The notes: generated by a model from the sequence alone, not told the origin. A stretch of DNA of 64,000 bases from Chrysomallon squamiferum (GCA_012295275.1 CM022674.1:11346001-11410000); one strand, 5' to 3'. Positions 7,961 through 22,346 are shown, counted from the stretch's first letter. Program-made: numbers and translations.

Positions 7961-8101
7961 TTCCCAGGACACTGGCTAACCTCTGGTGTGCAGTGCAGTG
8001 GCGAGGTCTAATGGACGGATGAACCCCAGAATGCGCATGTCATGTCGGCTATTATCTCCTCGTTAGATTGGGATGAACCTGGAAAAGATCTTGATGACCC
8101 T
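7961..8101 (+). repeat. Dispersed module, copy 1 (TTCCCAGGACACTGG...GGATGAACC...)
   Basis: TTCCCAGGACACTGGCTAACCT at 7961, GGATGAACCC ~8017, GGATGAACCT ~8071, GATGACCCT ~8093. Confidence 0.6.
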
Positions 8102-10602
8102 GTCTTCTTTTGTCCCCATGACAACAAGATGGTTGTTTCGTGGTTTTCTGGGGTCCATCAGTATGTCACGGTAAAGAGGTATTCCTGCTATGTCTCCCTT
8201 TCCCATGCTCCGCGGCCATATTCTGTTTGTCGTGGGGTAGTTTCCTCCTTTAGTGCCCGATGACCCCGTGCGCTATGGATAATCTCTCTTGTCGTGAACG
8301 GGTAAACATTCCTCTTAATGGTCAGTCAGTGTTGTCCCTTATTGTCCAGTGTGTTAATGTTTATTAATCCGACGCGTCACTATCTCGCTAAACTGTTGTG
8401 ACGGGTGGTAACACAGCCAGAACGCCCTTTTTAACTTCGCTTCAGAATGATCTTCAAATCGTATTCGTTCTGTAGTTCGTAGCTTTATTTTATTTTATTT
8501 TATTTTATTTTATTTATTTATTTATTTATCAGTTTATTAACTTTTTTAAATTTATTTATTTTCAATACTCTAGCGAACAATTACATATTATAATACTACT
8601 GCAAGGCTTAATTAATACATTGGCTTCTTTTTTCAGTGATTTTCTGATATTTTATTTCCAAAATAGTTTTAAAAAAAGAACATTTCTTACCTTTATTTCA
8701 TTAACTGATATTACAAGTTAATTTTCTAAGACAGTAAAACAGTTTTGACTTTTCCAGTAAGATTTTTCTAATATTATTTTGATATAACTTTTGTAAGGTT
8801 ATTCTACCACTTTTCACCTTCCTTAATTTTACCTGAGTGCACAGAACGTCAGATCTCCGTTTCTCGTTTTCGCTCTGTCAACAACACATACACACATACA
8901 AACATACACATAAACACACGCACAAGCACTCACAAAGAAACACATACAAACATACACATAAACACACGCACAGGCGCGCACACACACACATAAAAAACAT
9001 ACAAAGAAAAGTATATAAAGTATGGACAGAGACATCGTTTCACAAATAACTGACATATGCGTTGTATTTTATAATTTATGATCATGTATTAAAATTAAAT
9101 TGAACTAAGACAGCACGTACATACGAACAGAAGGCGTTTGACACCAGATTTTAAATTTAAAAAAAAAATTAAAAAAATTAAAAAAAGAAAGAAAAGATGA
9201 CAAAGAAGGATTTTGATAAATCGTTCTGAAGAAGGTTAATTAACGCAGCCATTGTTTTCTTTCTTCGTACCTCCCTCCTTTTTTCACGCTTCATTTTTCC
9301 AGGTCACGCGTCGGCCTCACTCAAAAATAATTTTAGTGTTGAAAAAACTGAACATGCTACAGGCGTTTTGAAAGAAAAGATAGCTCAGGAATAAAATGAT
9401 ATGTTAAATGAATGGACACAAGGGCGTTAGAATAATTGTCCCATTCACGGGAAGATATACGCGGGACAGCGCTGTTGTCAGTCACGAGTATGAAAAATTG
9501 GTCCGCTGTTTCAGCCTTTCATCATTTTCTCGTATTGCGACTGCAGTCTGCGGTCACTTCGCTCTCCGTAACCTCTGAGTCCGGGTCAGTCATTATTTTA
9601 AGAGTTGTCAAATCTGGGAAGAAATATCTTTTATAAAAGGAAGACAAAGAAATAAAGAAGAAGAAGAAAAATATGAAGAGGACAGATGGGGGAATTTTTA
9701 AACAGAAGAATATTTTTTGATTTTTTTTTCTTTTTCTTTTGGTGATTTATTTTTGTTTGCGTGTAGAATCAGCGAGATTTGCAGTAATCGTGATACCAAC
9801 GACGTGGTGATTTGCAAGAATATGCAGCATCATCGATTCAGACATCAACGTCATGTATAATCAATATATCGAATTTCGTTCTTAAGAAAAAAAAAAGAAT
9901 GAATAGTTAAAAACCTTGAAGTGCCGCAATAACTATAAATCTGACATCGCAGTCTTGTTCAAATGTAATTTATATTAATGTTCTCGTTTGTGAAACATAA
10001 AATGCTTGTACTGTAAAAGAATAAAAAGAATTGATGAGAGAGAAAATGAGAGAAGGAAGAACCAACTCTATTTCTTTATTTGTCATGTTAAAAGTTTCAT
10101 TAGAGATGAGTTTCAGTCAGATAATTCTGTTTCTTTCTTTCTAATTTTTTATTTTTTTTTGCTTTCTTCTTCTTCTTTTCATACATTTCCTTTTTTTGTC
10201 TTGAAATCTTTTTACTTTTTCATTCTTTATTATGTCTTTCGTTTCTTTCTTTATTCTTTCTTTCTTCATTCTTTGTGTTTTCATTTGAATGTGTTTTTTC
10301 CTGCACGTGATCTGAATGGAGCGAAAAAGAAAAAGAAACGAAAAGGGACTATATAAAATTATAACAAATATATAAATAAAAAGTATTTCAAACAATAAAC
10401 TTAATGTTCTTATTTGTTTAAAAATTATTGATTAATGCATGTTTTAATGTATATATTAATTTTAATTCTTAAATTTAGTCTCATTCACAATAATTTAATT
10501 ATCAAGAGTGTGCATGGGAAAGACATATACGAAGATATTTTTTTTATTTTAATTTTTAATTTTTGTTTGACATTAGAACAATGTCATCTATGAGAAAAAA
10601 GA

Positions 10603-11097
10603 AATAATAATAATAATAATAATAATAATAATAATAATAATAATAATAATAATAATAATAATAATAATAATAATAATAATAATAATAATAATAATACTGA
10701 TACTGATAATGATACTGATAATAATAATAATAATAATAATAATAATAATAATAATAATAATAACAATAATAATAATAATACTGATACTGATAATGATAAT
10801 GATAATGATAATAATAATAATAATAATAATAATAATAATAATAATAATACTGATACTGATAATAATAATAATAATAATAATAGTAATACTGATACTGATA
10901 ATAATAATAATAATAATAATAGTAATACTGATACTGATAATAATAATAATAATAATAATAATAATAATAATAATAATAATAATAATAATAATAATAATAA
11001 TAATAATAATAATAATAATAATAATAATAATAATAATAATAATAATAATAATAATACTGATACTGATAATGATACTAATAATAATAGTAATAATAAT
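10603..11097. repeat. (AAT)n microsatellite with ACTGAT interruptions
   Basis: Seen directly. Many other (CT/GA)n, (AAT)n and (ATTT)n tracts occur, e.g. at 6501, 11527, 27855, 29351, 31565, 32640, 36368, 37831, 44291 and 56103. Confidence 0.95.
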
Positions 11098-21400: not shown

Positions 21401-22280
21401 TGTAAGAAAATTAACAAATAAATTACTAAATGACTTAATTCCTATTTAACTAATAAATGCAAAATCTCACAATTACATACAAAAATATATTTCACTTTCG
21501 TTTAACATTCTTTGTTTTATCAAAATTAAACGTGAGCAGTTCTGAAAGCGTCTCTCATTGTTCACGCAACCTCAAACCAGCCAATCAAATTAGCCGTAAC
21601 AACGACGTGTAGAGTAAAACTGTTTATTATTATTTTGACTGGCAGTCTGGAGTTAAAATGTCAGTGTATTTATGTGTAATGATAGATAAGAGTGTAGATG
21701 TGTGACAACACTGCCAGATGACGTATTTTGCTCACCAAGGGATGGTAATTTGAAAAATGAATCATGACAATTATGGGATGAGTCAGCTTGGTGTTGTGTT
21801 TGTAATATTATAGAGAACATTTTGTCAAATTGTTTTAAGTTGGTTTAGAGTGAGTTTATTGTGTGTGCGTTTGACCTCACCTTACAGTACGTTCAGCTAA
21901 TAGCTGGTTTTTTTTTTCAGTTTTTTTTTCTATACTGTTCTGTCTGTGAGGTTCTTTCTTTTTGTTTCATCTCTCTCTCTCTCTCTCTCTCTCTCTTCTA
22001 TACATCTCTCTCTCGAACAGACATATATTTCTATCTCTGTCTCTCTCTATTATTCTCTCTCTCTCTCTCTCTCTCTCTCTCTCTCTCTCTCTCTCTCTCT
22101 CTCTCTCTCTCTCTCTCTCTCTCGTTCTCTCTTCTGTACGTATGTGTCTCTTTCTCAGTATTTCTTCATTCTCCTATAACAAATTTAACAGTGTTAAAGA
22201 TCTGCAATAAACGAAATACTAATGTTTACAGGTGTCTGCAGACACAGGTTTCGCTCATGTCGCATGCACAGAGGTCAGGC

Positions 22281-22346
22281 TTCCCAGGACACTGGCTGAA
22301 CTGTGACCACTGGACAGTAATGAAACGGACAGAAGCAATGACCCAT
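22281..22346 (+). repeat. Dispersed module, copy 4
   Basis: TTCCCAGGACACTGGCTGAACT at 22281 (first 17 nt identical to copy 1), TGACCAC at 22304, ATGACCC ~22338. Confidence 0.6.

What the first reader, a model, noticed from the sequence alone, without database searches (positions are those of the whole stretch)
7961..22346. Family of same-orientation non-coding modules (TTCCCAGGACA-N5-half site...GACCAC...GGATGAMCC) spread through the gene desert
Seen: TTCCCAGGACA occurs at 7961, 11136, 15286 and 22281, all on +, and three copies extend to TTCCCAGGACACTGG. In all four, AGGACA is followed after exactly 5 nt by TAACCT, CAACCT, TGACCT or TGAACT. TGACCAC follows at +23 to +26 in three copies, GATGRAC at +45 to +57 in three, and GGATGAMCCT at +96 to +114 in three, while the spacers are diverged. 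Each copy sits in its own unique island separated by microsatellites, with no TIRs, Pol III boxes or shared ORF. Inference: block-wise conservation with diverged spacers suggests selection on motifs. The copies could be an array of duplicated shadow enhancers for PRDM3/16 (nuclear-receptor-type inverted half-sites, GLI/ZIC-like GACCAC, COE/STAT-like TTCCCAG), sites for one multi-zinc-finger protein, or a paralogous ncRNA family. TTCCCAG|G is also a valid splice acceptor, so duplicated exons of an unannotated + strand transcript are possible.
Basis: partly seen in the sequence, partly recalled or inferred. Interest (0 to 1): 0.72.

Follow-up and report, generated by a model that had tools for sequence, protein, structure and literature searches.

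The report
Four duplicated enhancer-like modules beside PRDM3/16
Four short non-coding DNA modules lie in a row downstream of an invertebrate's PRDM3/16 developmental gene and were found nowhere else in its genome; they are likely duplicated enhancers that keep predicted binding sites for the Notch effector CSL and for nuclear receptors, a known kind of arrangement with an unusual overlapping site.

Summary
Four same-strand modules (7961, 11136, 15286, 22281) share an invariant 11-mer and, in three, two further collinear blocks. They lie between a SUMF-like gene and the 3' end of a PRDM3/16 gene. They are private to this locus: three exact patterns and a profile search of the 405-Mb genome gave no further copy of the module. 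They are not coding, not structured RNA, and not a dispersed repeat. Once the motif words are removed, no similarity remains. The two islands tested vary about five times less between individuals than their AT-rich flanks; that control is weak. The first 8 bases are the exact reverse complement of the JASPAR RBPJ/CSL consensus. They overlap by 3 nt an inverted repeat with a 5-nt spacer, the NR4A/RXR geometry, and module 3 has a perfect NBRE. Further nuclear-receptor half-sites fill the bodies, nearly all on one strand. Best reading (0.55): an old local duplication series of enhancers, probably for PRDM3/16, read by CSL and nuclear receptors. Binding, activity, target gene, transcription and cross-species conservation are untested. 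Known kind (duplication-born redundant enhancers); moderate interest.

The parts
7961..8101 (+). Module m1: block A (7961-7984), GATGAAC at +57, GGATGAACCT at +110, ATGACCC at +133; sits in a low-variation island 7911-8440 with more half-site-like words (8261, 8324)
11136..11241 (+). Module m2: block A, TGACCAC at +26, GATGAAC at +45, GGATGACCCT at +96
   Evidence: closest to m3 (z 6.1)
15286..15440 (+). Module m3: block A with a perfect NBRE octamer on the - strand (15302-15309), TGACCAC at +26, further half-sites at +38, +117, +148
22281..22345 (+). Module m4 (short form): block A, TGACCAC at +23, ATGACCC at +57, an extra half-site at -9; lacks the downstream blocks; closest to m1 (79% over 38 nt)
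7961..7968 (-). Predicted CSL/RBPJ site (CCTGGGAA on -); same at 11136-11143, 15286-15293, 22281-22288. These four are the only copies of this 8-mer in the window outside the PRDM3/16 exon
7966..7984 (-). Predicted IR5 nuclear-receptor element (NBRE-like octamer, 5 nt, TGTCCT), overlapping the CSL site by 3 nt; same at 11141-11159, 15291-15309, 22286-22304
47661..49682 (-). Terminal zinc-finger exon of the PRDM3/16 (MECOM/hamlet-type) gene, the inferred target, 25-40 kb away; its PR-domain exon lies beyond the window in L106
4326..4997 (+). Last two exons of a SUMF-like (FGE-sulfatase) gene (to 4505; 4850-4997), the other neighbour, 3 kb from m1

Best explanation
The four modules are locus-private, non-coding, same-strand paralogues that likely arose by old local duplication and likely act as redundant enhancers of the neighbouring PRDM3/16 gene, with a predicted CSL (Notch effector) site overlapping a predicted nuclear-receptor inverted repeat, followed by more predicted receptor half-sites. 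Shown: four copies, collinear blocks, decayed spacers, no other copy found in the genome, no coding or folding signal, lower variation than flanks in the two islands tested, motif identity with published CSL and NR4A/RXR sites, and genes for these factors in the genome. Inferred: duplication as the origin; binding by CSL and by a receptor dimer (NR4A or NR4A/RXR is the best geometric fit, but the genome has about 30 receptors); enhancer activity; PRDM3/16 as the target. In this model receptors load on the half-site cluster, CSL occupies the 5' site, and four copies add up or back each other up.
For: Confined to the locus: 2 of 3 hits here; next-best profile hit E 1.8. Similarity vanishes in all 6 pairs when motif words are removed (z -0.7 to 1.2) and is absent or marginal in flanks. 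In bodies +22..+200, TGACC or TGAACY occurs 12 times, all on +, against 0.33 and 0.73 per GC-matched window in two backgrounds (33 and 71 windows; P 6e-5); ATGACCC is in 4 of 4 (0.03 expected) (motifs chosen after seeing them). Several half-sites lie outside the collinear blocks. CCTGGGAA is the JASPAR RBPJ consensus (PMC10888155 passages). IR5 is bound by NR4A2 homodimers and Nurr1-RXR (PMC10242635 and PMC9894219 passages); 4 of 4 modules fit NBRE(up to 2 mismatches)-N5-half-site. CSL, NR4A and TR genes are present. Variable positions 8 of 891 in the m1 and m4 islands against 28 of 571 in flanks. Hamlet/PRDM3/16 is tied to Notch and Prdm3 is retinoic-acid inducible (review PMC7761934 passages). 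Duplication is detectable in 18-34% of shadow-enhancer sets (PMC13345019 abstract).
Against: No functional data. No cross-species copy was seen. The NBRE half has 2 mismatches in 3 of 4 modules, while the spacer CTGG is better kept than that half, which a plain IR5 does not require. One individual carries C>A at 22290 inside the invariant 11-mer, breaking AGGACA though not the CSL 8-mer. IR5 is not enriched genome-wide (82 vs control 96; perfect IR5 31 vs IR6 20, P 0.16) and the strict half-site + CSL composite has 1 hit outside the locus against 1 control, so no wider grammar is seen. No paired second CSL site. The variation test compares GC-richer islands with AT-rich flanks, with borders set after seeing the data, and does not single out motifs. 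m4 aligns only with m1. SUMF is far closer than PRDM3/16.
Confidence: 0.55

Rival explanations
1. The blocks are directional sites for one multi-zinc-finger protein and the array works as a boundary or tether between the housekeeping SUMF gene and the PRDM3/16 regulatory desert.
For: All four point the same way and crowd the SUMF end of the desert; the best-kept stretch is a contiguous 15-mer that includes the supposed spacer; GATGRMC recurs 9 times in three bodies, 8 on one strand.
Against: A boundary factor should have many sites genome-wide, yet the composites are private to this locus. No CTCF-like word in the modules by eye (consensus recalled). The recalled EVI1 distal-finger word GAAGATGAG occurs once in the window, at 42485, not in a module, so autoregulation through it is not supported.
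Confidence: 0.15
2. The modules are duplicated non-coding exons or unstructured RNA elements of an unannotated transcript.
For: TTCCCAG|G is an acceptor on +, and the downstream block gives a pyrimidine-rich YAG|G acceptor on - (the PRDM3/16 strand) in m1-m3. Unchecked earlier notes report duplicated-exon arrays elsewhere in this genome.
Against: No shared donor downstream on +; m4 has no - strand block; an acceptor does not need an invariant 11-mer or extra half-sites; no fold, no Rfam match on the modules.
Confidence: 0.12
3. They are neutral remnants of an old local tandem duplication or of a vanished transposon, with the shared words left by chance.
For: Same orientation and collinearity show common descent, not function; overall identity is low; one variant sits in the core; 4 sequences allow post hoc pattern picking.
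Against: Neutral decay should not leave an invariant 11-mer beside spacers with no similarity, nor extra non-collinear half-sites, nor low variation. No dispersed copies.
Confidence: 0.13
4. They are short alternative coding exons of SUMF (+) or PRDM3/16 (-).
For: The m1-m4 pair has 0 of 8 differences at second codon positions and reads SQCPGKxDLC on -; the + acceptor is in phase with the SUMF donor at 4505.
Against: Over all 6 pairs the differences are 32/31/26 by codon position; m3 has an in-frame TGA just before CPG; stops differ in every frame; third positions in the 11-mer never vary.
Confidence: 0.03

Closest known systems
Duplication-born shadow (redundant) enhancers, e.g. the fly CG6325 set (PMC13345019, preprint; abstract and one section read)
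   Same: Several local, homologous non-coding elements by one developmental gene, with binding-site layout kept while sequence diverges.
   Different: Activity and target are unproven here; divergence is deep (spacers unalignable) and four copies keep one 22-nt composite site.
NR4A2 homodimer / Nurr1-RXR IR5 element (PMC10242635, PMC9894219; passages read)
   Same: Inverted half-sites 5 nt apart in 4 of 4; m3 has the exact NBRE octamer.
   Different: The partner half is TGTCCT, one mismatch from TGACCT, and is overlapped by a CSL site; the NBRE half has 2 mismatches in m1, m2, m4.
CSL/RBPJ/Su(H) site, JASPAR MA1116.1 (via PMC10888155 passages)
   Same: Exact 8-mer consensus in 4 of 4.
   Different: Single sites, not sequence-paired sites; not the YRTGRGAA high-affinity form (recalled); fused to a receptor half-site.

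Membership tests
Duplication-born redundant enhancers | Several non-coding elements near one developmental regulator gene | tested here: met
Duplication-born redundant enhancers | Homology with retained, collinear binding-site layout | tested here: met
   4 of 6 pairs align above shuffles; similarity lies in motif words only
Duplication-born redundant enhancers | Clustered transcription-factor motifs above background | tested here: met
   (motifs picked post hoc)
Duplication-born redundant enhancers | Evolutionary constraint | tested here: inconclusive
   8 of 891 vs 28 of 571 variable positions for m1 and m4 only, GC-unmatched control, one core variant; no second species covered the modules
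Duplication-born redundant enhancers | Enhancer activity, open chromatin, shared target and overlapping expression | not testable with these tools
   no chromatin, Hi-C or reporter data
NR4A/RXR IR5 response element | Inverted half-sites spaced by 5 nt | tested here: met
   4 of 4; 3 other loose IR5 rows in the window, 1-5 rows at other spacings
NR4A/RXR IR5 response element | NBRE octamer on one side | tested here: inconclusive
   exact in 1 of 4, two mismatches in 3 of 4
NR4A/RXR IR5 response element | Cognate receptor encoded in the genome | tested here: met
   L077 best hit Nurr1 6L6L, E 3e-15; RXR assigned to L099 from recalled signature only
NR4A/RXR IR5 response element | Binding and ligand- or activity-dependent transcription | not testable with these tools
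   needs EMSA/ChIP
CSL/RBPJ site | Match to consensus and CSL gene present | tested here: met
Notch sequence-paired site | Second head-to-head CSL site 15-17 nt away (geometry recalled) | tested here: not met
   no YRTGRGAA or CCTGGGAA at that distance in any module
Transposon/SINE fragment | Dispersed copies genome-wide | tested here: not met
   (only 150 of 23906 candidates scored)
Structured ncRNA / miRNA cluster | Stable shared fold, covariation, Rfam match | tested here: not met
   40 folds, lowest z -1.72; 4 consensus pairs, none compensatory; none of 58 Rfam rows overlaps a module
Duplicated coding exons | Shared open frame and third-position bias | tested here: not met

The most novel reading that the evidence does not exclude
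Each module is a binary switch in which the Notch effector CSL and an NR4A/RXR dimer compete for overlapping DNA, copied four times to set PRDM3/16 dose: a direct link between Notch, retinoid or activity-dependent receptor signalling and a neuronal fate gene in a lophotrochozoan, built by lineage-specific enhancer duplication.
Probability: 0.1. Interest if true: 0.7.

Novelty: new member of a known kind. Interest (0 to 1): 0.38.

Why it matters
Cis-regulatory grammar is almost unknown in molluscs and their relatives. A four-copy paralogue series works as a natural footprinting experiment: it exposes the kept sites without a second genome and gives short, testable elements for a conserved neuronal and stem-cell regulator. 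If CSL and a receptor dimer really compete on the overlapping site, it would be a compact signal-integration design that my paper searches did not turn up, although they were narrow. Without function it remains an instance of a known phenomenon.

Tried and rejected
No RNA holder listed: no evidence either way on expression. Organism B runs X9 and X10 did not cover m1 or m4 at 80-85% likeness: absence of cover proves nothing, and its 0.03 share was on simple repeats where laid. Metagenome pattern scan gave 5 loci, all one bacterial sequence at the start of a gene, a chance match for a collection that size by my rough estimate. The six 11-mer hits on C2 are near-identical segmental copies in an unrelated context, and none of the 30 of 124 outside hits that I fetched carries the downstream blocks; one (C1) fits the 22-nt composite only; 200 kb of C2 was fetched and not used. 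The module profile found no fifth copy in the window or in 70 kb beside it. miRNA, snoRNA, ribozyme and SECIS ideas: no support. DAF-12/NR1J use of AGGACA is recalled; the search found 0 papers. egl-43/LAG-1 search found 0. The Jiang 2019 IR5 paper was not held. The PDB search with the zinc-finger exon gave only generic C2H2 hits; identity rests on the PR exon. In one search I counted 19 rows as sites; they are 18 positions, corrected. Indels and 4 variant rows at 22845-22916 were left out of the counts. No supplements were read.

Full report
Observation. The window is AT-rich and about 48% low-complexity. The 11-mer alone is only modestly unusual: 1 of 60 Markov simulations gave some GC-rich 11-mer four times, although the genome rate predicts 0.02 per 64 kb. 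The composite is not chance. The 15-mer has 3 of 3 genome hits here, the 22-nt block 4 of 5, and the downstream pair of blocks, independent of the 11-mer, 3 of 3; reversed controls gave 0 each time.

Setting. The modules lie 3-17 kb past the last exon of a SUMF-like gene (Pfam FGE-sulfatase) and 25-40 kb past the stop of a zinc-finger gene on the - strand. A PR-domain exon about 55 kb beyond the window matches MECOM (E 7e-10) and PRDM16 (E 2e-8) best, which supports the PRDM3/16 call; that the exons belong to one gene is inferred from strand and order. Earlier unchecked notes call the organism a snail; I did not test this.

Not a dispersed repeat. A sequence-only profile of the four copies returned the four copies and then E of 1.8 or worse (150 of 23906 candidates scored, so a lower bound). 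The m1 island has no second match. The 30 outside 11-mer hits fetched, of 124, sit in unrelated contexts. No fifth copy was found in the window or in 70 kb of flanks.

Not coding, not structured RNA. No frame is open through all four, and differences fall 32/31/26 on the three codon positions. The m1-m4 pair alone looks codon-like (0 of 8 at second positions), but m3 has a stop just before the shared CPG. Forty folds gave z no lower than -1.72, the consensus has 4 pairs with no compensatory change, and none of 58 Rfam rows touches a module. Non-coding exons stay open: there is an acceptor on + in all four and on - in m1-m3, no shared donor on +, and no RNA run to test.

Where the similarity lies. 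Bodies align above shuffles for m1-m2, m1-m3, m1-m4 and m2-m3 (z 2.8-6.1) but not m2-m4 or m3-m4; after removing the motif words no pair does, and flanks are absent or marginal (best p 0.02 of 12 tests). Same strand and collinear order point to local duplication; survival of motifs beside erased spacers points to selection on sequence-specific sites. Both steps are inferences.

Which sites. The first 8 nt are the reverse complement of CCTGGGAA, the JASPAR RBPJ consensus (PMC10888155, passages); in the window this 8-mer occurs only in the four modules and twice in the PRDM exon. On the - strand block A reads octamer, 5 nt, TGTCCT, then GGGAA. IR5 is the geometry of the NR4A2 homodimer (PMC10242635, passages) and of Nurr1-RXR (PMC9894219, passages). 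m3 carries the exact NBRE; the other three have two mismatches. AGGACA appears as a half-site in predicted thyroid response elements (PMC3340398, passages). Beyond block A, TGACC or TGAACY occurs 12 times in four 178-nt bodies, all on +, against 0.33-0.73 per matched window; ATGACCC is in 4 of 4 (post hoc). The genome has CSL and 61 zf-C4 matches; of 33 loci fetched, 28 gave a full first finger, 3 a part, 2 none, including NR4A and TR. Against a general code: IR5 is not enriched genome-wide and the strict half-site + CSL pattern has one outside hit against one control. The conserved CTGG spacer is not explained by IR5.

Constraint. Contigs from other individuals show 3 of 530 variable positions in the m1 island against 10 of 341 upstream (X1, X3, X7), and 5 of 361 around m4 against 18 of 230 downstream (X1, X2, X7); pooled 0.9% against 4.9%, P 2e-6. 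Limits: borders were drawn after seeing the data; flanks are AT-richer (0.27-0.28 against 0.40-0.48 GC); contigs drop rare variants and X1 shows one haplotype over m4; X7's m1 contig lists 8 differences and 5 gaps of which only some are tabulated; m2 and m3 were not tested. One variant (22290, X1) hits the invariant 11-mer and spares the CSL 8-mer.

Mechanism. Most likely (0.55) a set of duplicated enhancers: receptors bind the half-site clusters, CSL binds the 5' site, and the copies act additively or redundantly on PRDM3/16. The 3-nt overlap would make CSL and a full IR5 dimer mutually exclusive, which is the bold reading (0.1). The link to PRDM3/16 rests on position and on known ties of hamlet to Notch and of Prdm3 to retinoic acid (review PMC7761934, passages), which do not show that CSL binds this gene's enhancers. 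Rivals: one directional zinc-finger reader or boundary (0.15), neutral remnants (0.13), non-coding exons (0.12), coding exons (0.03).

Known or new. Duplication signatures are found in 18.3% of fly and 33.9% of mouse shadow-enhancer sets, some keeping site layout despite divergence (PMC13345019, abstract and section 7). This works like such a set; membership cannot be granted without activity data. No earlier scan note covers the locus. Verdict: real, locus-private, probably regulatory; new member of a known kind; interest 0.38.

Noticed in passing
window 12560-12700 (-), 27640-27780, 46230-46310 (-): Three more clusters of nuclear-receptor-like half-sites without block A; the module profile does not detect them.
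   Followed up: partly
window 8030-8041 (+) and 12598-12609 (-): The 12-mer AATGCGCATGTC is shared by m1 and the 12.6-kb cluster in opposite orientation; resembles an NRF1 word (recalled).
   Followed up: no
window 4645, 25379, 45614 (palindromes), 31809, 47249: ATGACGTCA (CRE-like, label recalled) is the commonest GC-rich 9-mer in the unmasked window.
   Followed up: no
window about 34660-34680: A word resembling the CTCF core (recalled consensus) in a GC-rich island mid-desert.
   Followed up: no
G000 C1:42515996 and C13:25480681: Two perfect IR5 sites carry exactly the 5-nt spacer of the Nurr1-RXR probe of PMC9894219, a hint that this grammar is used in the genome.
   Followed up: no
L013-L018 (G000 C2:8.31-8.45 Mb): Six near-identical segmental copies at 11-80 kb spacing, unrelated to the modules.
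   Followed up: no
L078-L081: Four nuclear-receptor fingers with a CESCKA P-box (NR1J/HR96-like by recall), three of them on contig C8.
   Followed up: no
window 33947-34155: A 73-nt tandem repeat, 2.8 copies, 84% matches.
   Followed up: no
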